Below, in pieces: positions 1,952 to 18,096 of a DNA stretch of 18,654 nucleotides. Location of the stretch: assembly GCA_029858305.1 (NCBI GenBank), contig JAOUFI010000041.1, positions 1-18,654 of the forward strand, given 5' to 3'. Position numbers and translations under genes: made by a program. The stretch is from Candidatus Thorarchaeota archaeon. GTDB lineage: Archaea > Asgardarchaeota > Thorarchaeia > Thorarchaeales > Thorarchaeaceae. The notes beneath the pieces were generated by a model. The model saw nothing but the letters and a program-made list of their open reading frames with translations, made no database searches and had not been told where the DNA came from. Numbering within the stretch: position 1 is the first letter of the stretch; every line of letters starts with the position of its first letter.

Positions 1952-2233
1952 TCAGCATTCTTCGCGTTCTAGAGAGTTGAAGAACTGCGGAGGTTCATCT
2001 CCCTGATCGAGTGAACGAACTCGAAATCCAGTACCTTGTTCATCTCGAAGCCTACTTGCGGTCTGAGCTCCTACAAAGCGTTTCCGTACGTTTGCCTCTT
2101 TCCCAAGCCAAAGATACACGTTCTTATTCTCACCATCGACTACACATATCACACGTTCAGAAGTTAGACCATTTCGTGTGATGCACACTGACTCTGATGT
2201 TCCATCCTCATTCATCTCTAGTGCGTTAGCCAT
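1952..2233 (-). CDS. Single-domain gelsolin-like protein (Asgard ProGel-type actin regulator)
   Basis: 93 aa. VICVVD...VYLWLGKEAN..KR..GAQTA and DQGDEPPQFF match the gelsolin repeat consensus (IYxWxGxxA...QGxEPxxF). GAGGA ribosome-binding site. Confidence 0.85.
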   Translation of the reverse strand: MANALEMNEDGTSESVCITRNGLTSERVICVVDGENKNVYLWLGKEANVRKRFVGAQTASRLRDEQGTGFRVRSLDQGDEPPQFFNSLEREEC

Positions 2234-4880: not shown

Positions 4881-4987
4881 CAGGACTATCTCGCTATAAT
4901 TTCCTTAACAATGGTAAGTAGAAGTGCAAAAGGCGCGAAATATGCAAACTCACTACGACCACATAGCTCAATATCCACCTTCGGAAC

Positions 4988-5029
4988 TTATAAAAGATTC
5001 ACAGATTAGACAACAAAGTCAGTTGGAGG
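4988..5029 (+). promoter_or_regulatory. Putative TATA box (TTATAAAA, 4988-4995) and ribosome-binding site (GGAGG, 5025-5029) for the gene starting at 5038
   Basis: Archaeal TATA consensus about 45 nt upstream of the ATG; GGAGG 8 nt upstream. Confidence 0.55.
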
Positions 5030-5037
5030 CCCAAAAA

Positions 5038-5397
5038 ATGCAGATACCTACATTTCTCTTAAGAAAACTCTACATCAAGGGAAGTCTCGAAAATGTCGAC
5101 GATGGTTTCTCGTTCAAATTAAAGAACTCGATATCATCAGGTACAGCTATTAGTATTGAACCCATCAAAGTGAATGGGAATGAATACCCACTTGATGCCA
5201 CTATTATCAGCTCTGCTGATGGTCAAATCATTGGCAGCGAGATTTCTGAGGGAAATTCTTTCCCCATTAAAGTTGGTCTTGATATCTCGATCCATGTTAA
5301 GGGGGATGCTCTTCCAGAAGGAGAACATACCATAGACATTTCGCTGACCACAAAGGAAGTTGGAAAACTCGCCTTTGATGTTACTGATTCAATTTAG
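5038..5397 (+). CDS. Small beta-rich hypothetical protein, resembling the accessory N-terminal domain of some HMG-CoA reductases
   Basis: ATG at 5038 with GGAGG is preferred over the GTG at 4924. IPTFLLRKLYIKGSLEN..GFSFKLKN pattern; the family link is from memory only. Confidence 0.7.
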   Translation: MQIPTFLLRKLYIKGSLENVDDGFSFKLKNSISSGTAISIEPIKVNGNEYPLDATIISSADGQIIGSEISEGNSFPIKVGLDISIHVKGDALPEGEHTIDISLTTKEVGKLAFDVTDSI

Positions 5398-5628: not shown

Positions 5629-5735
5629 CTCTATTCTATTTACTCCTTGACCTCTATCTTTTGATTCTTTTGTTATTCATAACGGTAAGGGCAATAGTTT
5701 TCTGCATATGCAGTGTCTTTGTATCGGTGGAAAGT

Positions 5736-6647
5736 ATGTACGTCAAGATACGCCATGATGGTTCTCTCGGTATCGGGCGTGGTACAGAGGGAGATGCAGA
5801 GATCACTATGGGCTTTGGCGAGGCCCATATGGTTGCCGCTGCACTTGAAAAACTCGCCCAAACAGCTAGAAATCATAAACAGACCTATCTCAAGACCACA
5901 AATGTAGGAGGTGGAAATAAGATAGATTTCATGCGTGCTGATGATGGAACAATCACAATCTCAGGAGATAGACAAACATACATCTGCACAGAACCAGAAA
6001 TTCGTGAACTAGCAGAGAAACTTAGACATTTGCCACCAGTCGAGGTAGCACCGCCCTCAGATTATGTCAAGAAGATTACTCCATCAAATGGATTATGTCT
6101 AGTGCTCACAAATGGAGGCAACTCAATTAGATTACGATTGCCTGAAGCTGCCCTCCTGAAGACTGCAATTCGTAGCAGTATTGATTCAAGATATTATGAT
6201 GAAACCATAATGATAGGTCAAAGAAGAATTGTCGTTAGTAGAACAAGCGATTTGAAATGGCAACTCCGAGGTGGAGAAAATACCGTAAACTTCACAGCCT
6301 TTGAAATCGAAGCTTTAGTAGCAGGTCTTCATAATGGAATATTGGACGTTCTAATGGATCTAGTCAAGAGCTTTGGAGCTGATGACATTTCGGATATCAG
6401 AGTCAAGAGTGTCCTTCAAAGAATCGAGCAGGAGACTGCAAAAGTCTTCGGAGAAGACAAGAACTGGAAAGGAGTAGTCAAAGACCTCACGAAGAGAACA
6501 AAATCAGTAATAGGTATTGGCGAATTTGCTGATGAACGTGCAGGACGCTTCATCGACATGTGTAAGTATGTATATAGTAAACTTGATACGATCTTCATTG
6601 AACCTCTCTTCGAATTGTTTTCAAACACTTTTGTTGCAGAGACTTAG
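5736..6647 (+). CDS. Hypothetical protein with four beta-beta-alpha internal repeats and a helical C-terminal domain
   Basis: ATG at 5736 preceded by GGTGG is preferred over the TTG at 5661. Long uninterrupted ORF with a recurring strand-E-helix unit. Confidence 0.8.
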   Translation: MYVKIRHDGSLGIGRGTEGDAEITMGFGEAHMVAAALEKLAQTARNHKQTYLKTTNVGGGNKIDFMRADDGTITISGDRQTYICTEPEIRELAEKLRHLPPVEVAPPSDYVKKITPSNGLCLVLTNGGNSIRLRLPEAALLKTAIRSSIDSRYYDETIMIGQRRIVVSRTSDLKWQLRGGENTVNFTAFEIEALVAGLHNGILDVLMDLVKSFGADDISDIRVKSVLQRIEQETAKVFGEDKNWKGVVKDLTKRTKSVIGIGEFADERAGRFIDMCKYVYSKLDTIFIEPLFELFSNTFVAET

Positions 6648-6810
6648 TTCGCAGACTCAACAATTTATGTGAGATAACATAATGTTGCGAAGAAGAAGAG
6701 CAATGTAAAATATGAAACTCTGTCCATATCTATTATAGCTATTGTCAATCCCACAAGTCTTATGACAGGAACAGAATACGGCCATACCCTAGGATATTGA
6801 GGTTCAGTAA

Positions 6811-7674
6811 ATGTTGCGTATCGGGTATATTAAGCAACTTCAGAAGAGATGGGGTCGAAGAGCACCAAAACAGATGCTTCGCATGATGCGACTACATCGA
6901 ACACCCTTTCAGACAATTCTTCAAAATATATTCGGAGCATTAGAAGATGGCGATGGACGATTTGCTTTTCCAACCATAGCTGCAATTGCTAGGATGCGAC
7001 CCGATCTTGTTCGTGAAATAGTGAACGAAGGACATGAAGTAGCAAGTCATGGATATAATCACGTAAGATATCCGACCCTCAGTGCGAATGATAGAGAAAG
7101 AGATTTTGCCCTCAGCCTTCAAACCTACAGGAAACTGGGTATCGAGATCAAGGGTTTCCGAGCTCCTTATGATAATTATACAGATGATATGCCAGCATTA
7201 CTTGAGAAGTACAAAATAGTTTGGGACGGTGGATTTGGTTACCGTACAGAATATAGAGAAAAGACTCATTTCTTCAACTTCAATCTCAATGATCGACCTT
7301 CGAGTGTCACATACATCCCGCTAAATATTTGGAGTGATGACTTGATGATTGATGTTCATGGAATGAGCCCTGAAGTGATATCAAAAACATTGAAGGAATC
7401 TATTACTCAAGCTTCTAGGACAGAGGGAGTCATTATGTTTGATCTTCATCCAATCAGAATGGGGCAACCGGAGTTTGTAGGATGCCTTCGAGATATTTGT
7501 GTTCATGCGAATAGCCTCGGTGCCTGGTGTACTACTCCAAGTGAAGCGGTCAATTATTGGAAAGCACATAAGAAATGGAAGGGAGACAGCTCTTTCTGTC
7601 TACTTCTAACTGGAGATATCGATAATTGGGTGTTCTCAGATTATCTCAGAAGAGTGATATGGAAAAGAAAATAG
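6811..7674 (+). CDS. Polysaccharide deacetylase (CE4/NodB-like)
   Basis: HEVASHGYNH metal-binding motif, GFRAPY and DLHP; motif-1-like LLTGDID at the C-terminus. Confidence 0.85.
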   Translation: MLRIGYIKQLQKRWGRRAPKQMLRMMRLHRTPFQTILQNIFGALEDGDGRFAFPTIAAIARMRPDLVREIVNEGHEVASHGYNHVRYPTLSANDRERDFALSLQTYRKLGIEIKGFRAPYDNYTDDMPALLEKYKIVWDGGFGYRTEYREKTHFFNFNLNDRPSSVTYIPLNIWSDDLMIDVHGMSPEVISKTLKESITQASRTEGVIMFDLHPIRMGQPEFVGCLRDICVHANSLGAWCTTPSEAVNYWKAHKKWKGDSSFCLLLTGDIDNWVFSDYLRRVIWKRK

Positions 7675-7695
7675 TAAAAAATGGAGAGATAAGAA

Positions 7696-8142
7696 GTGGG
7701 TAAGTTTCTCGGGAGAATTCTTCGAATTCTGGCATGGATTGCACCTACCTATCAATTCAGAGCGAGTGTTTACAAAAAATGTGGCGTAAAAATTGGTAAG
7801 GGCATATACATGGGTTTCTTAGTCATAATTGACGGTGAATATCCTGAGTACATAGAGATTCAGGATTGGGCGAGTATAGGACCTGGAGTAAAAATTATGG
7901 CACATTCAGGTGGTAGTCCGTATCATCAGCATCATAAAATCTTCCATGAAGGACCCAAGAAGGTAGTAATTGGTAAAGGAGCATGGATTGCCACAGGTGC
8001 TATAGTTCTGCCAGGTGTAACAATTGGTGAGGGAGCTATAATAGCAGCAGGATCAGTGGTAAGTAAGGATATTCCACCATTTACTCTGTTTGCTGGAAAT
8101 CCAGCACGGATGATTCAAAAATTGGAACCCCAGAAAGACTAA
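7696..8142 (+). CDS. Left-handed beta-helix (hexapeptide repeat) O-acyltransferase
   Basis: VVIGKGAWIATGAIVLPGVTIGEGAIIAAGSVVSKDIPP...GNPAR, with the His in MAHS. Confidence 0.9.
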   Translation: MGKFLGRILRILAWIAPTYQFRASVYKKCGVKIGKGIYMGFLVIIDGEYPEYIEIQDWASIGPGVKIMAHSGGSPYHQHHKIFHEGPKKVVIGKGAWIATGAIVLPGVTIGEGAIIAAGSVVSKDIPPFTLFAGNPARMIQKLEPQKD

Positions 8143-8384
8143 GGAGAAAGTTTCTTCCTGAGAAGGGCTTTGAGATCACCTACAGACCAAATATCAACTA
8201 CCTCTTCATCTTCAAAGAATATTTCAAACTCATTTTCAAGCTCACTTACAATAATAAAATGGGCCATTGAATCCCAAGGTTCGAAATCTTTACGTTTTAG
8301 TTCATCACTAATTTCGTGTTTTTCCAAAAGAAGAACTTTTGATAAGATGTCAAGCAAGCGATCTTCGATTTCAGTCAATCTCAT
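8139..8384 (-). CDS. Acyl carrier protein (FkbH-associated type)
   Basis: 81 aa and acidic; WDSMAH carries the phosphopantetheine serine; ELENEFEI...SVGDL; ATGA overlap with fkbH. Confidence 0.9.
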   Translation of the reverse strand: MRLTEIEDRLLDILSKVLLLEKHEISDELKRKDFEPWDSMAHFIIVSELENEFEIFFEDEEVVDIWSVGDLKALLRKKLSP

Positions 8385-10216
8385 TCCTCTATTAGTTCAA
8401 TCCACTCTGGTACCTCAACTGTTTGATCTGCCAAGTTGAGAATCCAAGTTATGACATTATCATCAGATGGTGTATGCATTACAAATCCGTGACGTTTGTA
8501 GAAGTCTGCGGCAGGTGGATTCTTGTTAGTCGGTATATATTCACCGAGTACACGTTGAGCCTTTGATTTTCTCGCATCAGCCACTATTTTGGCAAGCATC
8601 GCAGTTTCAGCCGACCGTCCAATCACTCTGCAACTCATCAGGAAGGAGTCAATCAACCAATCACTAGTTTGCTTCCGAACGATAGCCACTCCAACTATTC
8701 CTTCATCGCCAAATCTATCCTTGACAGCCATGCTATATACAGCAGCTTCTTTTGACTGTCTGAAATTGTTTACTTCAGCATCCGTATAACGTTTGGTGGT
8801 CAGATTGAATTGATTTGTTTTACCTATCAGCTGAACTACTCGGGGGGCGTCAAAATCATTCACTTCATTCGCTGTGACTTTCAATTCAAGTGTTCGCAAG
8901 AAATCTTCAATTGAGGTCGCACTCTTCTCTAATTCGGACCTTTTTCTCTTACCGGCATACATCTCTCCGCGAGTTAGATCCTCTTTTGTGAGGGACAATA
9001 CATCGAACACCTTAAGGTTCTCAAGCATATCGCGATACAATCGCGGATTCTTTGGCATGTCGACAACTAGAACCTCGGGATGCACCTGTGATACCTGTGC
9101 TCTCTCAACAGGATTGTCATCTAAGAAGACCATACTGTCTAAGCCAATGTTGATTTCAGCGGCAAGTTCCTCAAGATTTACTACTTTGTTTTGCCAATTG
9201 ATTCTCAAAGCAGCAAAGTGCTCTTCCTTAAGAATTTGAAAGGGATGCTCACGAAATACTTTGACTACATCATCGTAATTGTTCTTACTACAAATTGCTA
9301 GAATGATACCTCGATTATATAGACTGAGCAGGGTCTTTTGAAACTCTACGTATTCGATTCCTGGAGCGGTATTTCCGAGCTTGATTCCCTCGAGACCATC
9401 CTCACCAATGATACCACCCCAGAGCGTGTTGTCTAGATCAAGCACAATGCACTTCTTTGTCTTGCCTCGCAAAGCCAAGATGTAACGAAGATATTCATCA
9501 ACTAGGATGGGAGTGAATTGCTCACTAAAGGGAACTGATCCACGATACCAAGTATTCCAATTAATTACTCGTGATTTGCCAAAATCACTTGCGATAGAAT
9601 CAAGATCTACAACAAAAGAACGGGATTTTTCTTGGAATCGTTGGGCAAGGGATGAATTCAATTCACCAAAGAATTGCAGGAAACCAAGTTTCTGTTTGTT
9701 ATCAACGATGCCAAAAGGAGTGAATGAGGGAATAATGAAATTATTCACCAGAATAAGAGCAGAAGTACTAGACTCAAGGGTGTCTACAAGTGAACAAATT
9801 CCCGCAATGACCTCTTTCTGGATATTCTTTCTTTCCTTTTCATTCATCCGAATGAATGAAGCAATAAACAGCTTATCAAGGATTGACCATGCATCAATTG
9901 AAAGGACTATCACATCAGGTGATAACTTGTAGAGGTTGGAATTCTTGTCCAATATTTCTTGACGATAAGTATTGAACCCTCCAACAAATGTTTTCACATT
10001 AAAACCAACAATTCTTGTTTTAATGTCAAGACATGCTGCAAGTGGTTCAAGTGTTGCGGAACCTATTACTGCAATACGAACTGCATTAGTATCATTCTTT
10101 GATACTTTAATACCGAGTGCCTCAATTTTCTTGTATGCACTCCAAAGATTCAGGTATGATGGATTTTCCCGTGCAGGTGCAAGAATATTGGAAATTCTCT
10201 CATCATCGCGGCTCAT
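8381..10216 (-). CDS. fkbH: FkbH-like HAD-IIIC glyceryl-transferase/phosphatase (N-terminal SGNH-like, HAD and GNAT-like domains)
   Basis: KCIVLDLDNTLWGG, CSKN, VFLDDNPVER, KTNQFNLTT, DRFGDEGIVG and FLMSCRV (the acyl-carrying Cys). Confidence 0.93.
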   Translation of the reverse strand: MSRDDERISNILAPARENPSYLNLWSAYKKIEALGIKVSKNDTNAVRIAVIGSATLEPLAACLDIKTRIVGFNVKTFVGGFNTYRQEILDKNSNLYKLSPDVIVLSIDAWSILDKLFIASFIRMNEKERKNIQKEVIAGICSLVDTLESSTSALILVNNFIIPSFTPFGIVDNKQKLGFLQFFGELNSSLAQRFQEKSRSFVVDLDSIASDFGKSRVINWNTWYRGSVPFSEQFTPILVDEYLRYILALRGKTKKCIVLDLDNTLWGGIIGEDGLEGIKLGNTAPGIEYVEFQKTLLSLYNRGIILAICSKNNYDDVVKVFREHPFQILKEEHFAALRINWQNKVVNLEELAAEINIGLDSMVFLDDNPVERAQVSQVHPEVLVVDMPKNPRLYRDMLENLKVFDVLSLTKEDLTRGEMYAGKRKRSELEKSATSIEDFLRTLELKVTANEVNDFDAPRVVQLIGKTNQFNLTTKRYTDAEVNNFRQSKEAAVYSMAVKDRFGDEGIVGVAIVRKQTSDWLIDSFLMSCRVIGRSAETAMLAKIVADARKSKAQRVLGEYIPTNKNPPAADFYKRHGFVMHTPSDDNVITWILNLADQTVEVPEWIELIEE

Positions 10217-10222
10217 GTTCAA

Positions 10223-10672
10223 TCACGTTCCTGGTAAAAGTTCTGAAACTTTCTCGTTTAGCAATTTCTGAAATACTATTGTATTAGCAGATTGGATTGA
10301 TGGAATTACACATGCGATTGCAACAGCATATTGCGAACTATGTGCGAGACTCAGAATTATTTCAATATCAGGCAAGTTGCTAATCGAAACATAGGGAGAA
10401 TCATTTTCATCGTGAAAAACATCAATGGATTTCATCGATAGCGATAGTCTTCTCGTCATCGCCTTGATTGTTGCTTCCTTTGCAGCAAATATTACTGCGA
10501 GATGCGGAAACGGATCTGAATATCTCGAGCAATAGTCCATCTCTTGTTCTGTAAAGATGCGATTGAAAAAGTTGGACTCAAGATCCAACTCTCTGAATCG
10601 TTTTATTTCGATAATGTCCACTCCAATACCGAATTTATCATCTTGTAGAAAATCTGCGTCCGCATTCAACAT
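10223..10672 (-). CDS. acpS: Holo-ACP synthase (AcpS-type 4'-phosphopantetheinyl transferase)
   Basis: GIGVDIIEIKRF, IFTEQE..YC, FAAKEATIKA and SLAHSSQYAVA. Confidence 0.9.
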   Translation of the reverse strand: MLNADADFLQDDKFGIGVDIIEIKRFRELDLESNFFNRIFTEQEMDYCSRYSDPFPHLAVIFAAKEATIKAMTRRLSLSMKSIDVFHDENDSPYVSISNLPDIEIILSLAHSSQYAVAIACVIPSIQSANTIVFQKLLNEKVSELLPGT

Positions 10673-10699
10673 GGTTCAATCTCTGCGAGGCTATGGGAC

Positions 10700-10710
10700 T
10701 CTTATAACGA
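10700..10710 (-). promoter_or_regulatory. Putative TATA box for acpS-fkbH-ACP
   Basis: TTATAA at 10702-10707, about 30 nt upstream of the acpS ATG. Confidence 0.4.
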
Positions 10711-10721
10711 TAATGGCAGGT

Positions 10722-12158
10722 CTATGCAAGTTCCTTTGCAGACGTTTCCAGAATTGCAGTAGACCATGGGTATCTTTGAAGGATGTTATTCATTAGCCTA
10801 CGAACCTTCAGTTCCTCAGAGGTGCCTGAATAGACTAAGAGCATCACAAGACCTCCTCGTGTTCGTTTGAATTTCTGATACATCGTCTTAGTAGTGTTAA
10901 TTGTGTCACACACAATCATGACTTCAGCATGAGGAATGTCTAAGTCACGTTCACCAACAGGAGACATAACAAGTACCTGTGCATTATCATCTTCTCGAAA
11001 AGCTCTTAGAACATCGGCTTTATCATGTGACTGGCCAGTTATCGTAAGAACAGCGAAACCAGATTTCTCGAGAACTTCTTTGATTTGCGAGACCATTTCG
11101 AGATAGGATGTAAGAACGAGTGTCTTGTTGTGTTCAGAAGCTATCTTCAATATTCTAGTCACTTTGGCAGAGATCGTTGGTAGTATTCGCCTGAGTTCAC
11201 TGATATTGAAATAGTTCTTTATGTAGTCGCCATAAAACATTCGCAAGAACTGCTTCGGGGGCATAGCGTAGACATATTTCCTGAGCATCAGAAGAGCCGT
11301 ATAACGTCCCTTCAGTTCTTCAGAGATTGGTAATCGCTCAAGAAGAAGATGCACTCTTCTAGAATCTCCATCAACAATGTCAAGATTGCCATCCTCTTCG
11401 AGCTCACTCATAATCTCAGCTCGGGTAGTGCGAATGAGTTCATCAAGGACTTTTGATATTGACCGTATTTTTGTGTCACTTACTGCGCTCACGGAAAGAA
11501 ATGTTGGTTCAAGAAAATCTTCGACATCAGTGCCATACAGATCTTCCATGGTTATGAGCTCGGCACCTTGTATGTACTCTCGAAGAGTTGCTAGTTCATC
11601 ACGAATCTCAATCTGCTCTTTAGTAAAAACAGCATGATCATCTCTCAAAGTTCCACTCATACCGATGACCCATTTTCCCTTTAGGAATGTAAGAAGAGCA
11701 GGCCATGGGTAAACAAGAGCTGTCCTCCCACCAGACCGTCGAACAAGTGTATCCACCTCATTGATGAGCACGATCTTGAACCGGTCGAACAGCGATGCAT
11801 CTTTTTGAAACGTGCTTGTTAGAACCTGTGGCGTTGCCACTATCACACGTTTCTCACGAAGATTATAGATTCGGTTTCCAGATTGGATACGAGAAGAGAG
11901 CTCCCCAAGATCTTCCTCAAGACCACCATACTCGCCTCTGAGGTAATCCACTGTTTCAACGAGTGAAGAAGATGAGTGAACTATAATCAGAATCCCAGCT
12001 TCGGGGAATTTTTCCGCTACAATCTGATGTGTAATGAATCGTTTTCCTAGACCGCAGTCTAACTCCAAAAGAAGAGGAGTGTCCTTCAGCTCACTGACCC
12101 TATCTAGAATATAGGATTGATAACCTCGTGGAGTATACTTGGGTTTTGGCTTTGACAT
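10722..12158 (-). CDS. SF2 (Hef/ERCC4-like) helicase-fold protein with degenerate motifs and no nuclease domain
   Basis: PRGYQ (Q motif), DCGLGKR (I), VATPQ (Ib), INEVD (II), MSGT (III), VGERDLDIP (V), QKFKRTRG (VI). Confidence 0.8.
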   Translation of the reverse strand: MSKPKPKYTPRGYQSYILDRVSELKDTPLLLELDCGLGKRFITHQIVAEKFPEAGILIIVHSSSSLVETVDYLRGEYGGLEEDLGELSSRIQSGNRIYNLREKRVIVATPQVLTSTFQKDASLFDRFKIVLINEVDTLVRRSGGRTALVYPWPALLTFLKGKWVIGMSGTLRDDHAVFTKEQIEIRDELATLREYIQGAELITMEDLYGTDVEDFLEPTFLSVSAVSDTKIRSISKVLDELIRTTRAEIMSELEEDGNLDIVDGDSRRVHLLLERLPISEELKGRYTALLMLRKYVYAMPPKQFLRMFYGDYIKNYFNISELRRILPTISAKVTRILKIASEHNKTLVLTSYLEMVSQIKEVLEKSGFAVLTITGQSHDKADVLRAFREDDNAQVLVMSPVGERDLDIPHAEVMIVCDTINTTKTMYQKFKRTRGGLVMLLVYSGTSEELKVRRLMNNILQRYPWSTAILETSAKELA

Positions 12159-12215
12159 TACTCAATCATCTGTCTAGTGTGTTATGAACCCATCTGAAAG
12201 CCCTTAAGAATTGAC

Positions 12216-12605
12216 CTAAAATTGTTTGAAGACTTTTGCAAGTGAAGGTCCCTTCACATGCATGTCAAATTCAAAGAAATGACCAAAGGGAACCATATGG
12301 ATCTCAAAACCTTGCTGCTGGAGTTTGTCTGCGACCTCATTAATCAGAGCAGCTGCAAAATCAGATTCTGCCTTGCTCTCATCAAGATGGGCAAACGAAT
12401 GGAGTATGATTCTATTACATGAAACCTTCTGAGAAAGCCATCTAATGTTCTTGACCATCTTACGCAACACGCTCGTATGGTTTGATAAATCAGCAACCTC
12501 TGAATGTATCCAGACAAGTACAGATTCCCCTAGTTGGGTCCTCGCATCTTCAGATTCATTTCGACGAAACCAAAAGCTCTCAAGGTGAAACATGAGTAGC
12601 CTCAA
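12216..12605 (-). CDS. Free-standing threonyl-tRNA synthetase editing domain (archaeal Thr-ED / DTD-like fold)
   Basis: MRLLMFH start (TTG at 12605, with GGGGTGA 7 nt upstream); VWIHSE..D, IILHSFAHL and PFGHFFEF..HVKG.SLA. Confidence 0.85.
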   Translation of the reverse strand: MRLLMFHLESFWFRRNESEDARTQLGESVLVWIHSEVADLSNHTSVLRKMVKNIRWLSQKVSCNRIILHSFAHLDESKAESDFAAALINEVADKLQQQGFEIHMVPFGHFFEFDMHVKGPSLAKVFKQF

Positions 12606-12658
12606 GGACAAATCACCCCTTGTATCAATCAACCAATGAATATGGATTCATCGTTTTT

Positions 12659-13525
12659 CTACAGACGCTCGCCATTTCCAGGCATGTCCGCTTCATCCTC
12701 TGCATCGAACTGTGTCGGTCCGCCAATAGGCTGATGTTCGATTTCAGCTTCGCCTCTGGGCTTTCGCGGGATTGCTTTCCCATGCACCCAAATTGTATTT
12801 GGAGGAATCGTTGTGTCCTTAGGAACCACAGTATTGGCACCCACAATCACATTATCGCCGATATCAGCTCCAGGTAGAATTACAGCGTTTGCTCCCACAG
12901 TGACATTGTTGCCCAACCGCACTGTCTTGAGGTAAAGGCGTCTGCCTTCATATACATGACCGCTCAGAATTGCATCATAACCAAAGAAGCAATTGTCTCC
13001 AATAATTGTGCGTTCCGGATTGAATAAGCGTCCATTGCCGACTACAGTGTTTTTACCTATCTTTGTGCCAAAAGCTTGATGCCGGGGTTTTGTGTCAAGG
13101 AATACAGAGAAGAATCCGGCAAAATAGGGAAAGAGGATGTAATAGACCTCATAGTATTCGTAAAGCAACCAAGCTTCTGATTCAGCCTCATAATAACCAT
13201 CCTCAAGAAATGGTATTCCTCTCCGTGAGAGCTTAAGCATAGCAAGTAAGAATCCTAGAAACACTGCATAGCATGTTAAGCCAACAGGAACAAAGAGAAC
13301 AAAGACCCAGAAGTATTGGATTACAAGGGGATCAAAGGTTCCAGTGAGGAGTGGCAATGCCGCCTCATAGAGTGTAGCAAACGGAAAGCCAAGGCTGTTC
13401 AAGAAGTTTGTAAAATGCAGCAGAAAGAATCCGAAAAATAATATTGCAGGGATTGCTGCTATGGTCAGACTCACCATTATAGAGAGGACCATGTACATTG
13501 TATATCCAAGAGACCTTGCTTTCAT
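12659..13525 (-). CDS. Membrane-anchored hexapeptide-repeat (LbH) acyltransferase-like protein
   Basis: N-terminal hydrophobic helices, then IGKNTVVG / IGDNCFFG..SGH / LGNNVTVGANAVILPGADIGDNVIVGAN; acidic tail. Confidence 0.8.
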   Translation of the reverse strand: MKARSLGYTMYMVLSIMVSLTIAAIPAILFFGFFLLHFTNFLNSLGFPFATLYEAALPLLTGTFDPLVIQYFWVFVLFVPVGLTCYAVFLGFLLAMLKLSRRGIPFLEDGYYEAESEAWLLYEYYEVYYILFPYFAGFFSVFLDTKPRHQAFGTKIGKNTVVGNGRLFNPERTIIGDNCFFGYDAILSGHVYEGRRLYLKTVRLGNNVTVGANAVILPGADIGDNVIVGANTVVPKDTTIPPNTIWVHGKAIPRKPRGEAEIEHQPIGGPTQFDAEDEADMPGNGERL

Positions 13526-13673: not shown

Positions 13674-14903
13674 ATGGATTATGACATGATTGTGGCAGGC
13701 ACAGGTCCAGCAGGGCTCATGACAGCCGAGCGTGCTTCTATGTACGGACTGAAGACATTGGTATTGGAGAAGCGCGCGGCTGTGACAGACTCTCTGATGG
13801 GCGAGCTTGTTACAGACAAGGCTCTGAAATTACTGAGAGTGAAATCAGACTCGGAGTATATAGGAAACAAGTTCACTTCTATTGTGGGAGAGAGCCTTGA
13901 TACAGGTTCTAACATTGTTGTTGATAGGACCCTTCTAGGTAACTCGTATTTGTTCGATGAAGATAAGTGCCAAGAGCTGATGCGCGATAGAGCTCTCGCT
14001 GATGGTGCAGAGTTTAGGTATAAGGCGAGGGTCAAATCTGTTATTAAAGAGAGCAGTGCAGTGGTTGGTGTAAAATATGGCAGTGACCAAGAAGTCAAAG
14101 CAAACCTTACTGTTGGAGCAGATGGATCTTTCAGTAGGGTATCTGAAACTGCAGGTTTTACACATCCGAAATGGCTTCTTAGCTATGGCTATCGATTCAA
14201 GCTCACAAACTGCAAGAATGTCGATCCGAACGTCGCTTATTTCTTCGTTGGAAAAGATATAGGTCTTGGTTATCTTTGGCTCTATCCTAGATCAGAGACT
14301 GAGGTCAATCTTGGCATAGGACGAGTGCCTTCTTCAAAGGAAAAATGGAGTAAGTTACCTCCGATGCAGGATGTGCTCCGCAAATATATGAAGACACATT
14401 CTGAAACAGAGAGCGCAAAGATTGCTTCCGTTAATGGCGGCGTTGTTCCCTGCGCGGGTATTATTCCAAGGTTCACCGATGCGGGCGTTGCACTCTGCGG
14501 AAACTCAGCAGGTCAGGTCTCCTCCATTGTCGGAGGCGGCGTGACCACATGTTTTCATGCGGGTCAGGTGCTTGCAAAGCACGCAAAACGAATGGTTGAT
14601 TCTGATGATTTCTCGAGAAGGAGTGTCTTTCTATATGAGAAAGAGTATAGAAAGTCCAAACTAGCATCAAATATCACAAATACCGGAAAAGGAATGTGGG
14701 CAGTATCTAAGTATGCCATGCTCAACGACCCGATTGCGGCAGCAGAAATTGTGCTCGGCCAATTAGATGCAAAGACACTCAATGAATTGATTCAAGGTCA
14801 TGCAAGTGTTGCGACCTACATGACCCTCATGACAGATTTCCTACCAATGGTTGCTAAAATCGGAGTGGGATACCTGAAGGCAATCGCTATGACAGGTCTG
14901 TAA
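13674..14903 (+). CDS. Geranylgeranyl reductase family FAD-dependent oxidoreductase
   Basis: VAGTGPAG, LVLEK, VGADG, GYLWLYP and CGNSAGQV..IVGGGV; AGGTGA ribosome-binding site. Confidence 0.85.
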   Translation: MDYDMIVAGTGPAGLMTAERASMYGLKTLVLEKRAAVTDSLMGELVTDKALKLLRVKSDSEYIGNKFTSIVGESLDTGSNIVVDRTLLGNSYLFDEDKCQELMRDRALADGAEFRYKARVKSVIKESSAVVGVKYGSDQEVKANLTVGADGSFSRVSETAGFTHPKWLLSYGYRFKLTNCKNVDPNVAYFFVGKDIGLGYLWLYPRSETEVNLGIGRVPSSKEKWSKLPPMQDVLRKYMKTHSETESAKIASVNGGVVPCAGIIPRFTDAGVALCGNSAGQVSSIVGGGVTTCFHAGQVLAKHAKRMVDSDDFSRRSVFLYEKEYRKSKLASNITNTGKGMWAVSKYAMLNDPIAAAEIVLGQLDAKTLNELIQGHASVATYMTLMTDFLPMVAKIGVGYLKAIAMTGL

Positions 14904-15136: not shown

Positions 15137-16201
15137 ATGAGTGTGAATGAGTCTATGCTTAACAACAAGGAATTTACAGATGCTCTCAATCTGTTTGGAT
15201 TTATTTCAGGAGAGCAACGAGAACCACGGCTCCTAACCATCCTCAGTGTGATACTGAAACTGCAAACGAATCCACCTATGCCTCTTACTTTCTCTCAAAT
15301 CTACGAAGAAATTGAGAGGGAAGATTCAAGCGCTAGACTGACAAAGGCATGGATTCACAAAGTGTTGAAGGCACTTATTGAAGTGCAACTGATTCGGGTA
15401 GATAGTCAAACAGCTCACCGCAAGAGGTACATTGCTGATGTGAATACTGTGATGGCAGGTCTTGAACAGATAAAGAGTCAAAGAGTCAAACAACTTGAGG
15501 CTCAGATACAAGAATCGAAAGATGTCCTTAAAGAAGTGAGCGCCCTCGACTGCGGCAAGCTGGCTCAGGAATTTGTAAAAGACATTACAGGGCAGCAGCA
15601 AGAGATTAGCTCTCGGGTCGTTAGAGGAGTTGACGCGCTGCATAGAGTTCTGAGGTATAATATGCTCGACTTGGCAAAAAAGGGAGATATCATACGGGCG
15701 ACTTTACTATGGGCTGGACCTTGGATTGATTCAACTGCAGGAGAACGAATATTGAGATTCTTTGAAGCAGCCGAGAGAGGTGTAGACATTCGCTATCTTA
15801 TCTCTACAGATATATTCAAACTAGAAAACGAACAAGAAAAAAGAACAAACCTGCAGGCGATGGTGGGCTTGTTTCAAAAATTAATCGAAATGAGGGCACG
15901 AGGCAAGAAGTTCGACGCCCGTTTCTATCTCGGACCAAAGACATACAATCAGATTTCGCTAAATAGAGATAATATGGCTTTGATCATTACAGAAAATCCT
16001 GTTACTGCCACATGGATTACTAGGCGATTCAATCCAGATCTTATTGACAACGCCGTGAGATCGTTTGATAGAGACTGGAAGCGGTCCAAATCAATCTTCG
16101 ATCTCACACCGCAGGAGATGGCTGCTATGGGAGGAGTCCCCGGGGGAGTAATGAGTCAATTAGTAAATTCTAAAAGAAAGGAAGAAATAATTCATGAATG
16201 A
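15137..16201 (+). CDS. TrmB-like regulator paralogue 1 (wHTH, coiled coil, PLD-like effector domain)
   Basis: PLTFSQIYEEI...LTKAWIHKVLKALIEVQLIRVD..RKRY wHTH; AAERGVDIRYLI; NPDLIDNAVRSFDRDW. Confidence 0.75.
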   Translation: MSVNESMLNNKEFTDALNLFGFISGEQREPRLLTILSVILKLQTNPPMPLTFSQIYEEIEREDSSARLTKAWIHKVLKALIEVQLIRVDSQTAHRKRYIADVNTVMAGLEQIKSQRVKQLEAQIQESKDVLKEVSALDCGKLAQEFVKDITGQQQEISSRVVRGVDALHRVLRYNMLDLAKKGDIIRATLLWAGPWIDSTAGERILRFFEAAERGVDIRYLISTDIFKLENEQEKRTNLQAMVGLFQKLIEMRARGKKFDARFYLGPKTYNQISLNRDNMALIITENPVTATWITRRFNPDLIDNAVRSFDRDWKRSKSIFDLTPQEMAAMGGVPGGVMSQLVNSKRKEEIIHE

Positions 16202-16224
16202 AGGGAGAATAGAGGGCAGCACTG

Positions 16225-17127
16225 ATGCAAGAGACATGGGATGTATTAGAAACTGTTGGTTTTGATATGAAGAGGAAGGACATGATAGTCCTTGGCGCAC
16301 TTCTCAAATCACAGAGTGAGCCAAAAGCGTTCGTTGATTTTGAGTCTTTGAGAGAGCAACTTGCAAAAGATGAAGGAGGAAAAAAGGGGAAGGACTCACT
16401 CATCTATCGTAGTCTCTCATGGCTTGAACAGGCTGGATTGCTTCAGGTTGACAGAAGCGGGCACAAGCATGGGTACAATTCAAATTTAGGTATGATGCAG
16501 AAGGTCTTGAAACAGCGAATAAAAACAAAGTTGTCGGAATTTGCGAAAGAGAGCAAAGCTCTTGATGTTGATATTCATGTGATATCAGAAATCAATGCAA
16601 ATTCACTTGCAGCAGATGTGGTAGCACTGGCAGTGGGAACACAACTAGCAGAAAGACCTTTTTTCGCCCAAGGATGGCAGAACATAGTGAAGCTCCTAGA
16701 CGATAAAGTCTATAGAAACCTCAAGAAAAACGATATCATCAGATTCACATTGGAATGGTACGACCGCCCAAAGGAATTGGAAGAACCAAGAGTGGACATA
16801 ATCGAGAAAATACTAAAGGAGGGGGTAGAAGTACGAGGATTGGAACATCGAAAACTGGGGGGCAAAAGTTACCAGCGATTTGCTCAGCTATTTAGGATTT
16901 TCATTCAGAAAGGCTACAAGGTTGGCTTACGGGTGCGCTTGAGGGAGGATTCGACGTATCAATTTGTAGGACGCAGTTCTGAAGGAATTCTACTCATTGT
17001 TTCAGAGAATCCACTATCTGGAACATGGCTGCCGAGAAGTGCTAATCCAGAGCTGGTTGATAATGCAATTCAAAGCTTTGACAGGGACTATCTTGAAGGA
17101 TCTGAAATCTCTTCATTTGGAGAGTGA
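16225..17127 (+). CDS. TrmB-like regulator paralogue 2
   Basis: DSLIYRSLSWLEQAGLLQVD..KHGY wHTH; KEGVEVRGL; NPELVDNAIQSFDRDY. The start codon is uncertain. Confidence 0.75.
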   Translation: MQETWDVLETVGFDMKRKDMIVLGALLKSQSEPKAFVDFESLREQLAKDEGGKKGKDSLIYRSLSWLEQAGLLQVDRSGHKHGYNSNLGMMQKVLKQRIKTKLSEFAKESKALDVDIHVISEINANSLAADVVALAVGTQLAERPFFAQGWQNIVKLLDDKVYRNLKKNDIIRFTLEWYDRPKELEEPRVDIIEKILKEGVEVRGLEHRKLGGKSYQRFAQLFRIFIQKGYKVGLRVRLREDSTYQFVGRSSEGILLIVSENPLSGTWLPRSANPELVDNAIQSFDRDYLEGSEISSFGE

Positions 17128-17133
17128 CATTGA

Positions 17134-18096
17134 ATGACAGGGAGAAAATCTATTGAAATCCTGACAAAGCTCGGAGTGGATATGAATTCAAGTCAGATGA
17201 TGGTATTCAAAGCAATCATCACTGCGGCAAATGGCCTCTCAAGATCTGTCACCTATAAAGAAATAGTTGATGCAATAAAGAAGATTGCTGATAAGAAATA
17301 TACCAAGGCTTATGTGTATCGACAATTAAGCAGCTTGGAGAAAGAGGGATTCATCGTTGTAGATGCAATCCAGCATCCAAAACGATATAGTATTTCAGAA
17401 TCTACACTATCTTCTGCCTTGGCAAGAAAGAGTCAACATACTCTCTCGGAACTCAAGTCAAAGCATCAAGCTATCACCAGACAGCTGAAACTCCTAGAAA
17501 CTGTGGATCCCGAGGAATTGGCAATCACTGCCTACAACACTCTTGTCGGAATCTCTCCCGGTAGTGAGTCAACGATCATTGAAGGGATTGAGAACGTGAG
17601 GAGCACGGTGATTAGAGAGTTTGCAGATGGAGCCAAGCCAGGAGACTATGTTAGAGTTTTAGCTCCAGCAAGTACAATCGCAGAGGGCCTTGGGCCAGGT
17701 GGAATGACAGAACTTCGTATTATACAAGGAGCATCAAAGGGTGTAAAGGTACATGGAATGCTAACGCCTTTTCAGCAGCAGGAGATGAGCACCGAGCTGA
17801 TTGCGGGATTCCTCAAGACGCTCTCAGGACCCTTTTTTGAGGCAGTGAATACAGGAAATGTTAAGGTCAAACTCGCGAGGGAGCCTGTACAGACATATAG
17901 AATGGTCAGTCTCAATAATGATAAAATGCTCCTTTATCTTACTCATGCAAAAGAATCGGATGTTGCAGCCTTGATTCATAGAGGAAAAAATGCTGGACTC
18001 ATAGATGATGCAGTTTCAACCTTTGATAGACTTTGGGAGAATGGCGTGGATATTGCTGAGATTCTAGCAAAGATGATGAATTCTGGCAAGATGTGA
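17134..18096 (+). CDS. TrmB-like regulator paralogue 3
   Basis: VTYKEIVD...YTKAYVYRQLSSLEKEGFIVVD..PKRY wHTH; IIEGIENVRS; KGVKVHGML; NAGLIDDAVSTFDRLW. Confidence 0.78.
   Translation: MTGRKSIEILTKLGVDMNSSQMMVFKAIITAANGLSRSVTYKEIVDAIKKIADKKYTKAYVYRQLSSLEKEGFIVVDAIQHPKRYSISESTLSSALARKSQHTLSELKSKHQAITRQLKLLETVDPEELAITAYNTLVGISPGSESTIIEGIENVRSTVIREFADGAKPGDYVRVLAPASTIAEGLGPGGMTELRIIQGASKGVKVHGMLTPFQQQEMSTELIAGFLKTLSGPFFEAVNTGNVKVKLAREPVQTYRMVSLNNDKMLLYLTHAKESDVAALIHRGKNAGLIDDAVSTFDRLWENGVDIAEILAKMMNSGKM

What the first reader, a model, noticed from the sequence alone, without database searches (positions are those of the whole stretch)
6811..13525. Possible deacetylate-then-glyceryl-acylate surface glycan or lipid tailoring system
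Seen: a CE4 deacetylase and a soluble LbH acyltransferase converge on the ACP gene (stops overlap at 8139-8142), and a second, membrane-anchored LbH protein heads the co-directional run containing acpS-fkbH-ACP. Established: some LbH enzymes (LpxA/LpxD) use acyl-ACP donors, and in lipid A synthesis deacetylation precedes ACP-dependent N-acylation. Inference: the deacetylase frees an amino sugar and an LbH enzyme re-acylates it from glyceryl-ACP, giving N-glyceroyl sugars on S-layer glycans or lipids.
Basis: inference. Interest (0 to 1): 0.7.

Follow-up and report, generated by a model that had tools for sequence, protein, structure and literature searches.

The report
Archaeal carrier-protein glyceryl acylation cassette

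Summary
The LbH and ACP stop codons overlap.

These five genes form one real unit.
- All five are linked in 10 of 10 loci from two distant Asgard families, where no other window gene is nearby.
- The cassette-type FkbH and CE4 co-occur in 55 of 56 FkbH-positive genomes among 400.
- Three same-genus genomes lack exactly this block, and a fourth keeps a deletion scar.

The membrane LbH (12659-13525), the helicase and the ThrRS editing-domain gene are not part of the unit. They stay in cassette-less genomes.

Catalytic residues are intact in all five proteins. The ACP and AcpS are the only ones found in this genome. The CE4 appears to carry its first motif at the C-terminus (circular permutation, inferred).

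The acetyl-to-glyceryl swap by the soluble LbH is plausible but untested. The same CE4+LbH pair also exists without any ACP in another Asgard genus, so an acyl-CoA donor stays open.

This scan has reported the same cassette before in other Thorarchaeota genomes.

Verdict: first reading partly supported; a new variant of known chemistry.

The parts
6811..7674 (+). CE4-fold (NodB-homology) hydrolase, 287 aa, putative de-N-acetylase. The first motif appears relocated to the C-terminus (C263-N272).
   Evidence: PF01522 gives 48.7 bits and matches profile positions 19-119 only; TIGR03006 matches positions 37-141 only. Invariant in 26 of 26 Asgard orthologues: H80, H84, R117, P119, Y120, D176, D177, D181, D211, L212, H213, and most of a conserved C-terminal block 263-272 that includes D269 and D271. 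AF2 model: pLDDT 89.3, pTM 0.87, last strand 262-267. Foldseek best hits are 3rxz, PuuE 3cl6, 3s6o, 1z7a and HP0310 3qbu, TM about 0.65.
7696..8142 (+). Small soluble left-handed beta-helix acyltransferase, 148 aa (WcaF/MAT/GAT-like), with an amphipathic basic N-terminal helix. Candidate transferase of the ACP-borne acyl group.
   Evidence: Hexapep 46.2 bits. It lies below the cut-off of every named NCBIfam equivalog (best 75.5 bits against 300). Best PDB hits are O-acetyltransferases SACOL2570, MAT and GAT, E about 3e-18. H70 is invariant in 26 of 26. Net charge +7; residues 1-18 have hydrophobic moment 0.56.
8139..8384 (-). Acyl carrier protein, 81 aa, attachment serine S39 in an invariant W-D-S motif.
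   Evidence: NCBIfam ACP models give E 4.4e-6, below cut-off. The profile of 25 orthologues hits 31 of 31 ACPs in the PDB, best 2lml at E 2.3e-8. D38 and S39 are invariant in 25 of 25. It is the only match to that profile in the genome. Net charge -10.
8381..10222 (-). FkbH-type enzyme, 613 aa (FkbH_N + HAD-IIIC phosphatase + C-terminal Cys domain). Predicted glyceryl-S-ACP synthase using 1,3-bisphosphoglycerate. The true start may be the ATG at 10216.
   Evidence: TIGR01686 gives 321.8 bits against a cut-off of 146.65; FkbH_N gives 52.9 bits. D262, D264, T266 and C531 are kept in 32 of 32 Asgard cassette sequences. PDB 3slr (BF1531) matches at E 2.5e-53. There is a single copy in the genome.
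10223..10672 (-). AcpS-type 4'-phosphopantetheinyl transferase, 149 aa.
   Evidence: PF01648 gives 67.1 bits against 25; TIGR00556 gives 65.4 against 45.35. It is the only PF01648 match in the genome.
10673..10721 (-). Right junction of the cassette: a 49-nt spacer between the helicase stop and the acpS start, holding a TTATAA element about 30 nt before the ATG. Possible own promoter (inferred).
   Evidence: Read directly from the sequence. In cassette-less relatives the helicase abuts the gene homologous to 5661-6647 with only 115-154 bp between them.
6648..6810 (.). Left junction of the cassette, a 163-bp spacer. In 8 of 13 same-genus loci a methylmalonyl-CoA-epimerase-like VOC gene sits here; it is absent in this window.
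   Evidence: VOC family: Glyoxalase_4 and TIGR03081 at 72.5 bits, below its cut-off of 114.95. The own genome has only a 34%-identical VOC elsewhere.

Best explanation
Window 6811-10672 is a self-contained, block-inherited five-gene cassette that builds and spends an ACP-bound three-carbon acyl group.

Proposed steps:
1. AcpS puts phosphopantetheine on S39 of the cassette's own ACP, the only carrier protein detected in this genome.
2. FkbH takes 1,3-bisphosphoglycerate, removes the phosphate with its HAD domain, holds the glyceryl group on C531 and passes it to holo-ACP, giving glyceryl-S-ACP.
3. The CE4-fold enzyme removes an N-acetyl group from an amino sugar. This happens in the cytoplasm or at the inner membrane face, because none of the five proteins has a signal peptide or a membrane span.
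4. The small LbH acyltransferase moves the glyceryl group from ACP onto the freed amine, giving an N-glyceroyl sugar for a cell-surface glycan.

What is shown here: gene identities, intact catalytic residues, block inheritance, and the fact that the ACP and AcpS are unique in the genome.

What is inferred: the glyceryl chemistry (by homology), the LbH as the ACP-dependent transferase, N-acylation rather than O-acylation, and the identity of the acceptor.

The membrane LbH at 12659-13525, the helicase and the ThrRS editing-domain gene are bystanders.
For: Conserved unit:
- All five genes are linked in 10 of 10 loci of families f18 and f20 (FkbH about 46% identical), with the order rearranged and none of the window's other genes nearby.
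- They are also linked in 8 of 8 loci of other genera of the same family. Among 13 same-genus loci, FkbH, ACP and AcpS are in all 13; CE4 and the small LbH are each in 11, and each missing copy falls where the locus reaches a contig end.
- They are linked as well in a Hodarchaeota record and two Promethearchaeota records.

Co-occurrence in 400 genomes of the phylum:
- 56 genomes have the cassette-type FkbH and 61 the CE4 orthologue; 55 have both.
- Of the 6 CE4-only genomes, 2 are contig ends and 1 is a deletion scar.
- AcpS is found in 53 of the 56.

Natural deletions:
- G001, G013 and G024 lack exactly this block, with the flanking genes 115-154 bp apart.
- G015 keeps only abutting AcpS and CE4 fragments.

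Residues intact:
- FkbH D262, D264, T266 and C531, 32 of 32.
- ACP S39, 25 of 25.
- LbH H70, 26 of 26.
- CE4 H80, H84, R117, P119, Y120, H213, D269 and D271, 26 of 26.

No other consumer of an ACP in this genome (88.9% complete):
- No other ACP or AcpS.
- No MBOAT.
- Only two short thiolase-like PF00109 matches, of the kind that also ring in archaeal control genomes.

Other support:
- FkbH chemistry as described in PMC8949500 (passages read).
- The CE4-then-N-acyl-transfer logic has a precedent in VimE/VimA (PMC7468200, passages read).
- One representative protein fuses a CE4 domain to FkbH and one fuses a VOC domain to FkbH.
- LbH genes lie near FkbH in 19 of 76 non-Asgard loci.
- ACP is acidic (-10) while CE4 (+8) and the LbH (+7) are basic.
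- The genome has DegT-type sugar aminotransferases and a nucleotide-sugar dehydrogenase.
Against:
- The nearest solved relatives of the LbH are acetyl-CoA-dependent O-acetyltransferases. It fails every curated equivalog cut-off, including LpxA and LpxD.
- A CE4 paralogue (25-30% identity, full length) followed by an LbH paralogue (41-42%) occurs in genus g75 with no FkbH, ACP or AcpS nearby, and no FkbH in that family (0 of 135 genomes). A second LbH plus CE4-like pair sits on contig C65 of this genome. So the pair can work without an ACP.
- The permuted CE4 orthologue was found only in Asgard loci. Of 76 non-Asgard FkbH loci only 2 had even a weak CE4 hit, so most FkbH/ACP/LbH sets do without a deacetylase.
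- The two fusion proteins are single-member clusters and could be gene-calling artefacts.
- There are no glycosyltransferase or sugar-nucleotide genes next to the cassette in the window, so the acceptor is unknown.
- The count of LbH genes near FkbH has no matched control. This genome alone has 5 other LbH hits.
Confidence: 0.5

Rival explanations
1. O-acylation. The LbH transfers the glyceryl group (or an acetyl group) to a hydroxyl of a sugar or glycan, as its nearest solved relatives do. The CE4 enzyme acts on a different position or at a different step, for example trimming an acetyl group elsewhere on the same glycan.
For: Best PDB and NCBIfam relatives are O-acetyltransferases: SACOL2570, MAT, GAT, WcaF and the YvoF type. 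The presumed catalytic H70 is conserved. Most non-Asgard FkbH+LbH loci have no CE4.
Against: The tight, phylum-wide linkage of CE4 with the LbH and FkbH is most simply read as sequential action on one atom. LbH N-acetyltransferases are also among the hits, at E 6e-13 to 4e-7. Sequence alone cannot separate N- from O-transferases in this fold.
Confidence: 0.2
2. The CE4+LbH pair is an older acyl-CoA-dependent two-enzyme unit that merely sits beside the AcpS-FkbH-ACP trio. The glyceryl-ACP is used by an unlinked enzyme, or the LbH acetylates the ACP-bound glycerate.
For: The same pair exists without any ACP system in genus g75 next to an AglM-like UDP-sugar dehydrogenase. A second LbH plus CE4-like pair lies on contig C65 of this genome.
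Against: The five genes are gained and lost together, 55 of 56 and as a block deletion. No other candidate acceptor enzyme for an acyl-ACP was found in the genome: no MBOAT, ketosynthase or second carrier protein. One protein fuses CE4 to FkbH.
Confidence: 0.15
3. Lipid tailoring. The glyceryl (or glycerate) group is put on an isoprenoid lipid or polyprenyl carrier rather than on a sugar.
For: Both LbH proteins score best against the heptaprenylglyceryl-phosphate O-acetyltransferase model (75.5 and 57.9 bits, cut-off 300). The LbH has an amphipathic N-terminal helix. A geranylgeranyl-reductase-family gene lies at 13674-14903. ArnD, a CE4 enzyme that acts on a lipid-linked sugar, is among the fold matches, though only at rank 23.
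Against: The reductase gene and the membrane LbH are not linked to the cassette outside this family and remain when the cassette is lost. The YvoF-model scores are far below cut-off. Related FkbH loci in other archaea lie among glycosyltransferase and nucleotidyltransferase genes.
Confidence: 0.08
4. One reading: the membrane-anchored LbH at 12659-13525 belongs to the system and re-acylates the target from glyceryl-ACP at the membrane.
For: It lies on the same strand, upstream of acpS. It resembles the membrane-embedded LbH repeats of Pls-type synthetases, which act on carrier-bound substrates (TIGR02353, E 1.5e-11).
Against: It is absent from 10 of 10 distant cassette loci. It is absent from cassette-bearing L021 and L046. 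It is retained next to the reductase gene in G001, G013, G024 and G015, which have no cassette and no AcpS. Two unrelated genes separate it from acpS.
Confidence: 0.04
5. Extender or starter-unit supply for a polyketide, tetronate or non-ribosomal product.
For: This is the textbook role of FkbH/ACP pairs (PMC8949500, passages read; listings).
Against: The genome has no ketosynthase beyond two thiolase-like fragments and no other carrier protein. There are no dehydrogenase or methyltransferase genes for methoxymalonyl-ACP in the cassette.
Confidence: 0.02

Closest known systems
FkbH/OzmB-type glyceryl-S-ACP synthases with dedicated ACPs (methoxymalonyl-ACP, tetronate and NRPS-starter pathways)
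   Same: HAD-IIIC DxDxT motif, C-terminal catalytic Cys, a score above the curated TIGR01686 cut-off, and an adjacent stand-alone ACP. The chemistry is described in PMC8949500 (passages read).
   Different: There is no PKS, NRPS, condensing enzyme or downstream dehydrogenases. The partners are a CE4 hydrolase and an LbH acyltransferase. The host is an archaeon that otherwise lacks ACP and AcpS. An extra FkbH_N domain is present, as in B. fragilis BF1531 (3slr).
Wbp/Vim pathway of Porphyromonas gingivalis and Tannerella forsythia (VimE CE4 deacetylase, then VimA N-aminoacyl transfer onto a di-N-acetyl-glucuronic acid sugar)
   Same: A CE4 enzyme exposes an amine that a second enzyme re-acylates with a non-acetyl group (PMC7468200, passages read). 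The best named relative of this CE4 is the PEP-CTERM deacetylase type TIGR03006.
   Different: The acyl donor here would be an acyl-ACP rather than an aminoacyl donor. The transferase is an LbH protein and not a FemAB/GNAT-like VimA. The CE4 seems circularly permuted. No Wbp genes are adjacent.
NodB / NodA / NodF of rhizobia, and LpxC / LpxD of lipid A (both recalled, not read here)
   Same: De-N-acetylation followed by ACP-dependent N-acylation. NodB is a CE4 enzyme and NodF a dedicated ACP. LpxD is an LbH enzyme that uses acyl-ACP.
   Different: There is no NodA-type transferase and no LpxC-fold deacetylase. The LbH scores only 32.7 bits on LpxA (cut-off 226) and is not among the best 25 listed for LpxD. 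The acyl group would be a C3 hydroxy-acid and not a fatty acid.
MAT / GAT / WcaF-type hexapeptide O-acetyltransferases
   Same: LbH fold, the conserved His corresponding to the catalytic His of GAT (recalled), and the C-terminal GNPAR motif.
   Different: It lacks the N-terminal Mac domain, is 148 aa long, is below all equivalog cut-offs, and is genetically tied to an ACP system.

Membership tests
FkbH (TIGR01686) glyceryl-ACP synthase | Score above the curated family cut-off | tested here: met
   321.8 bits against 146.65
FkbH (TIGR01686) glyceryl-ACP synthase | HAD DxDxT phosphatase motif and C-terminal catalytic cysteine | tested here: met
   D262, D264, T266 and C531 in 32 of 32 sequences. 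Also invariant in 22 diverse homologues.
FkbH (TIGR01686) glyceryl-ACP synthase | Loads glyceryl from 1,3-bisphosphoglycerate onto a cognate ACP | not testable with these tools
   Needs an enzyme assay with mass spectrometry of the ACP.
Acyl carrier protein | Conserved D-S attachment site and ACP sequence profile | tested here: met
   W37-D38-S39 invariant in 25 of 25. The profile hits 31 of 31 ACPs in the PDB. The single sequence is below Pfam and NCBIfam cut-offs.
AcpS-type phosphopantetheinyl transferase | PF01648 / TIGR00556 above cut-off | tested here: met
   67.1 against 25 and 65.4 against 45.35. The equivalog TIGR00516 gives 59.4 against 59.8, just below.
Carbohydrate esterase family 4 (NodB homology) | HxxxH, RxPY and LxH motifs and the (beta/alpha) barrel fold | tested here: met
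   H80, H84, R117, P119, Y120, L212 and H213 invariant. Foldseek probability 1.00 to CE4 structures.
Carbohydrate esterase family 4 (NodB homology) | Motif 1 (catalytic and metal-binding Asp) on the first strand at the N-terminus | tested here: not met
   The N-terminal 46 residues are basic helices with no acidic residue before residue 46. The profiles match only from positions 19 and 37 onward. A D-x-D-N-W motif that is invariant in 26 of 26 follows the last strand instead. The local alignment of the tail to a canonical CE4 N-terminus is not significant (183 of 500 shuffles scored as high) and Pfam finds nothing in the tail. The permutation is therefore inferred, not shown.
MAT/GAT/WcaF/YvoF named LbH O-acetyltransferases | Score above any curated equivalog cut-off | tested here: not met
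   Best scores are 75.5 against 300, 71.1 against 192 and 63.3 against 347.
LpxA/LpxD acyl-ACP-dependent LbH acyltransferases | Family score and the ACP-binding C-terminal domain | tested here: not met
   LpxA gives 32.7 bits against 226. The protein ends about 10 residues after the beta-helix.
ACP-dependent sugar N-acyl swap (works like Nod, Lpx or Vim) | The transferase takes the acyl group from the cassette ACP and puts it on the CE4 product | not testable with these tools
An assay is needed.

The most novel reading that the evidence does not exclude
The cassette is an archaeal surface-glycan tailoring system in which an LbH enzyme outside lipid A biosynthesis uses an acyl-ACP (glyceryl-ACP) to N-acylate an amino sugar freed by a circularly permuted CE4 deacetylase. 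It would be the sole purpose of ACP and AcpS in these Asgard archaea. It is ancestral to at least Thor-, Hod- and Loki-like lineages, and an optional epimerase-like VOC gene would set the stereochemistry of the glyceryl group.
Probability: 0.35. Interest if true: 0.75.

Novelty: new variant of a known kind. Interest (0 to 1): 0.58.

Why it matters
Archaea are held to do almost without acyl carrier proteins. [quoted passage not shown] Here an ACP with its own activating enzyme is kept in many Asgard lineages for a job that is neither fatty-acid nor polyketide synthesis.

If the reading holds, three things follow.
- It assigns genes to N-glyceroyl (glycerate-bearing) sugars, a decoration whose biosynthesis has not been worked out.
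- It adds a second class of ACP-dependent LbH sugar acyltransferases beside LpxA and LpxD.
- It gives a marker that varies between close relatives, with natural knock-outs, for studying Asgard cell surfaces.

Searches for prior descriptions found none.
- FkbH + archaea: 5 papers, none on this.
- Acyl carrier protein + Asgard: 21 papers, 12 listed, none by title or abstract on this.
- FkbH + glyceroyl: 2 papers, both on polyketides.

Only open-access text was searched.

Tried and rejected
- Complex prediction of the LbH trimer with ACP: queue full twice, then the tool was declared unavailable. No result.
- Expression: no RNA holder was listed for window 6700-10750.
- Circular permutation by sequence: the local alignment of the CE4 tail to a canonical CE4 puts D-I-D-N-W on D-F-E-D-W, but the score is not significant. 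Pfam on the 36-38-aa tails of three orthologues gave no hit.
- The 427-aa gene beside the g75 CE4+LbH pair: no Pfam, NCBIfam or Atlas lead. It has a 64%-identical copy elsewhere in this genome and is not adjacent in a third g75 genome, so it was dropped as unrelated.
- PKS/tetronate reading: rejected, because the genome has no ketosynthase and no second carrier protein.
- MBOAT (DltB-like) acceptor, as in the Nitrosopelagicus FkbH locus: none in this genome.
- Within-family synteny as evidence of function: rejected, because the whole 18 kb is syntenic there.
- The FkbH paralogue (about 30% identity) in some Asgard genomes lies in glycan loci (GT2, PIG-L deacetylase, sulfotransferase, FkbM methyltransferases) with no ACP among ORFs of 70 aa or more. 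Not pursued.
- PMC9385802 passages on ACP held nothing on archaeal ACPs.

Full report
**What is there.** The window comes from a Thorarchaeota (Asgard) genome bin. The names come from sources of near-identical proteins. The bin is 88.9% complete with 2.8% contamination.

The ORFs and family scans give these genes:

| Coordinates | Strand | Product |
|---|---|---|
| 6811-7674 | + | CE4-fold hydrolase |
| 7696-8142 | + | 148-aa left-handed beta-helix (LbH) acyltransferase |
| 8139-8384 | - | 81-aa acyl carrier protein (ACP) |
| 8381-10222 | - | 613-aa FkbH protein (FkbH_N + HAD-IIIC + C-terminal domain; TIGR01686 321.8 bits, cut-off 146.65) |
| 10223-10672 | - | AcpS |
| 10722-12158 | - | SF2 helicase |
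| 12216-12632 | - | stand-alone archaeal ThrRS editing domain |
| 12659-13525 | - | 288-aa membrane LbH protein |
| 13674-14903 | + | geranylgeranyl-reductase-family gene |

The LbH and ACP stop codons overlap at 8139-8142. The ACP start overlaps the FkbH stop, and the AcpS stop abuts the FkbH start.

**Which genes belong together.** Inside the family the whole 18 kb is syntenic, which says nothing about function. Three other comparisons are informative.

(a) Distant loci. In 10 of 10 loci from two distant Asgard families (FkbH about 46% identical) the same five genes are linked in a different order: CE4-AcpS-FkbH-ACP on one strand and the small LbH beside them on the other. None of the window's other genes is near. 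The same holds in a Hodarchaeota record and two Promethearchaeota records.

(b) Co-occurrence. Among 400 genomes of the phylum, 56 have the cassette-type FkbH, 61 have the CE4 orthologue, and 55 have both.
- Of the 6 CE4-only genomes, two are contig ends and one is a deletion scar. The other three are 52-80% complete.
- The single FkbH-only genome is 69% complete.
- AcpS is found in 53 of the 56.
- Related genomes are not independent, but five families are involved.

(c) Natural deletions.
- Three same-genus genomes (G001, G013, G024) lack the block. The gene homologous to 5661-6647 and the helicase gene lie 115-154 bp apart there.
- In G015 an AcpS fragment (residues 15-54) abuts a CE4 fragment (residues 5-131).
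- In all four, the membrane LbH and the reductase gene remain.
- Conversely, the membrane LbH is missing from two cassette-bearing loci, L021 and L046.

So the unit is 6811-10672. The membrane LbH, the helicase and the editing-domain gene are neighbours only.

**State of the five proteins.**
- FkbH keeps D262, D264, T266 and C531 in 32 of 32 cassette sequences.
- ACP keeps W37-D38-S39 in 25 of 25. Its single sequence is too divergent for Pfam, but the profile of orthologues hits only ACPs in the PDB (31 of 31).
- The LbH keeps H70 (26 of 26). Its best solved relatives are acetyl-CoA-dependent O-acetyltransferases (SACOL2570, MAT, GAT; E about 3e-18), with sugar N-acetyltransferases further down the list. 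It fails every named NCBIfam cut-off.
- ACP is acidic (net -10). CE4 (+8) and the LbH (+7) are basic.
- None of the five has a membrane span. The LbH starts with an amphipathic helix.
- In this genome the cassette holds the only ACP, the only AcpS and the only FkbH.
- There is no MBOAT and no real ketosynthase.

**The CE4 protein is unusual.**
- Motifs 2, 3 and 5 of the family (H80/H84; R117, P119, Y120; L212/H213) are invariant.
- The N-terminal 46 residues are basic helices, and the family profiles match only from positions 19 (Pfam) and 37 (TIGR03006) onward.
- Residues 263-272 at the C-terminus are invariant in 26 of 26 at every position but 264. This block supplies a strand followed by D269-I-D271-N-W. 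That resembles the D-x-E/D-D-W first motif of the PuuE / PEP-CTERM-deacetylase subgroup, as seen at the N-terminus of the canonical CE4 in locus L055.
- The AF2 model is confident (pLDDT 89.3, pTM 0.87). It matches that subgroup best: 3rxz, 3cl6, 3s6o, 1z7a and 3qbu, with TM about 0.65.
- I read this as a circular permutation that keeps the active site. It is an inference: the tail alignment is not significant, Pfam finds nothing in the tail, and I could not inspect coordinates.

**Relatives outside the cassette.**
- The three-domain FkbH family is very large: 15,044 clusters at E <= 1e-3.
- In a FastTree of 100 sequences the Asgard cassette FkbHs form one group of 22 rows (SH-like support 100). 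Its nearest sampled relatives are ammonia-oxidising archaea, DPANN archaea, Patescibacteria and some bacteria. This is a quick method and the tree is unrooted.
- In 76 non-Asgard FkbH loci, tblastn finds an LbH gene in 19, a VOC gene in 17, AcpS in 8 (mostly DPANN and Patescibacteria) and a CE4 hit in only 2, both weak. There is no matched background control.
- The Nitrosopelagicus locus holds two nucleotidyltransferases, a canonical CE4, an LbH, an MBOAT, FkbH, ACP, a MaoC dehydratase and a GT2. The Nanoarchaeota locus lies among GT2, YfhO and PMT-like genes. Both are glycan contexts.
- Of 22 long FkbH representatives, one is a CE4-FkbH fusion and one a VOC-FkbH fusion. Both are single-member clusters.

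**A sixth, optional gene.** A methylmalonyl-CoA-epimerase-like VOC gene (Glyoxalase_4; TIGR03081 46-72.5 bits, below cut-off) accompanies the cassette in 7 of 10 distant loci and in 8 of 13 same-genus loci. It is absent from this window, where 6648-6810 is only 163 bp. It persists in G015 after the cassette was deleted. By analogy with thioester epimerases it could invert C2 of glyceryl-ACP (inference).

**Evidence that cuts the other way.**
- In genus g75 of another Asgard family, a full-length CE4 paralogue (25-30% identity) is followed by an LbH paralogue (41-42%). No FkbH, ACP or AcpS is nearby, and that family has no FkbH match at all (0 of 135 genomes). The pair lies beside an AglM-like UDP-sugar 6-dehydrogenase.
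- Contig C65 of this genome holds another LbH (506 aa) plus CE4/DUF2334-like (348 aa) pair.
- The CE4+LbH couple therefore works without an ACP elsewhere. This supports the view that the two enzymes act on one substrate. It also leaves open that the cassette's LbH uses an acyl-CoA.

**Most likely mechanism.** AcpS primes the ACP. FkbH makes glyceryl-S-ACP from 1,3-bisphosphoglycerate, by homology (chemistry in PMC8949500, passages read). CE4 removes an N-acetyl group from an amino sugar on the cytoplasmic side. The LbH moves the glyceryl group to the freed amine.
- The nearest studied logic is VimE/VimA of the Wbp/Vim pathway (PMC7468200, passages read).
- NodB/NodA/NodF and LpxC/LpxD are recalled analogues.
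- The genome can make amino and uronic sugars.
- My confidence in the whole chain is 0.5. For the parts: about 0.95 that the five genes are one unit, about 0.8 that the carrier bears a glyceryl group, and about 0.9 that the membrane LbH is unrelated.

**Novelty.** Open-access searches found no description of FkbH/ACP systems in archaea. Archaea are described as mostly lacking ACP and AcpS (PMC3533463, passages read). This scan has noted the same cassette before in other Thorarchaeota genomes and reached a similar reading. Those notes are unchecked AI notes; I re-derived the linkage here. To my knowledge the following are additions: the block-deletion evidence, the ACP-less CE4+LbH pair, the apparent CE4 permutation and the fusion proteins.

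Noticed in passing
L142:890-11437 (G052, another Asgard family); not in the window's genome: The PF01648 scan of 400 Asgard genomes hit 123. In families f5 (28 of 31), f14, f17, f20, f9 and f26 most matches lie in open frames of over 1,000 aa, commonly about 3,200-3,800 aa. One 3,515-aa example reads NMO-like enoyl reductase, KS, AT, three PP-binding domains, KR, DH and an Sfp-type PPTase. This is a PUFA-synthase or type-I FAS/PKS-like megasynthase in Asgard archaea.
   Followed up: partly
window 12659-13525 (-) and 13674-14903 (+): The membrane LbH protein (hydrophobic N-terminal half, Pls-like LbH domain, acidic tail) is divergently paired with a geranylgeranyl-reductase-family gene. The pair is kept across the family, also where the cassette is lost, and the LbH is duplicated in tandem in L041. 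Its function is unknown.
   Followed up: partly
L133:8183-9616, L134:7374-8856, L135:8000-9397 (genus g75): A CE4 paralogue plus LbH paralogue pair without FkbH, ACP or AcpS, beside an AglM-like UDP-sugar 6-dehydrogenase in two of the three genomes.
   Followed up: partly
own genome contig C65 (L143:2025-4592, -): A 506-aa LbH protein directly followed by a 348-aa DUF2334/CE4-like protein, flanked by housekeeping genes. It is a second acyltransferase-plus-hydrolase pair in the same genome.
   Followed up: partly
L136:7891-8392 (G015): Deletion scar: an AcpS fragment (residues 15-54) abuts a CE4 fragment (residues 5-131, with stop codons). FkbH, ACP and the small LbH are gone. The VOC gene and all flanks are intact.
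   Followed up: yes
window 15137-18096 (+): Three tandem paralogous genes (354, 300 and 320 aa; 21-27% identical to each other by cross-hits; only a weak PLD-like hit). They are conserved as a trio across the family.
   Followed up: no
window 1952-2233 (-): A 93-aa gelsolin-repeat protein (PF00626, E 1.8e-4), an Asgard-type eukaryote-like gene, conserved in relatives.
   Followed up: no
window 4924-5397 (+): A stand-alone 157-aa protein matching only the N-terminal domain of HMG-CoA reductase (PF25653, 83.2 bits), conserved in relatives.
   Followed up: no
window 12216-12632 (-): A stand-alone ThrRS editing domain. It is absent from several relatives (L041, L044, L045, L047, L048, L139, L140). 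Many relatives carry an extra 1.5-1.9 kb between it and the helicase that this window lacks.
   Followed up: no
L033:4727-6883 (-), genus g43: An AglB/STT3 oligosaccharyltransferase lies just upstream of the cassette, read as two ORFs (503 + 199 aa). This could be a hint of N-glycan context or plain synteny.
   Followed up: no
L026, L027, L028, L029, L030, L049: A second FkbH paralogue (about 30% identity) occurs in some Asgard genomes. In the loci annotated it lies among GT2, a PIG-L deacetylase, a sulfotransferase, an LPG-synthase-like gene and FkbM methyltransferase genes. No ACP was seen among ORFs of 70 aa or more.
   Followed up: partly
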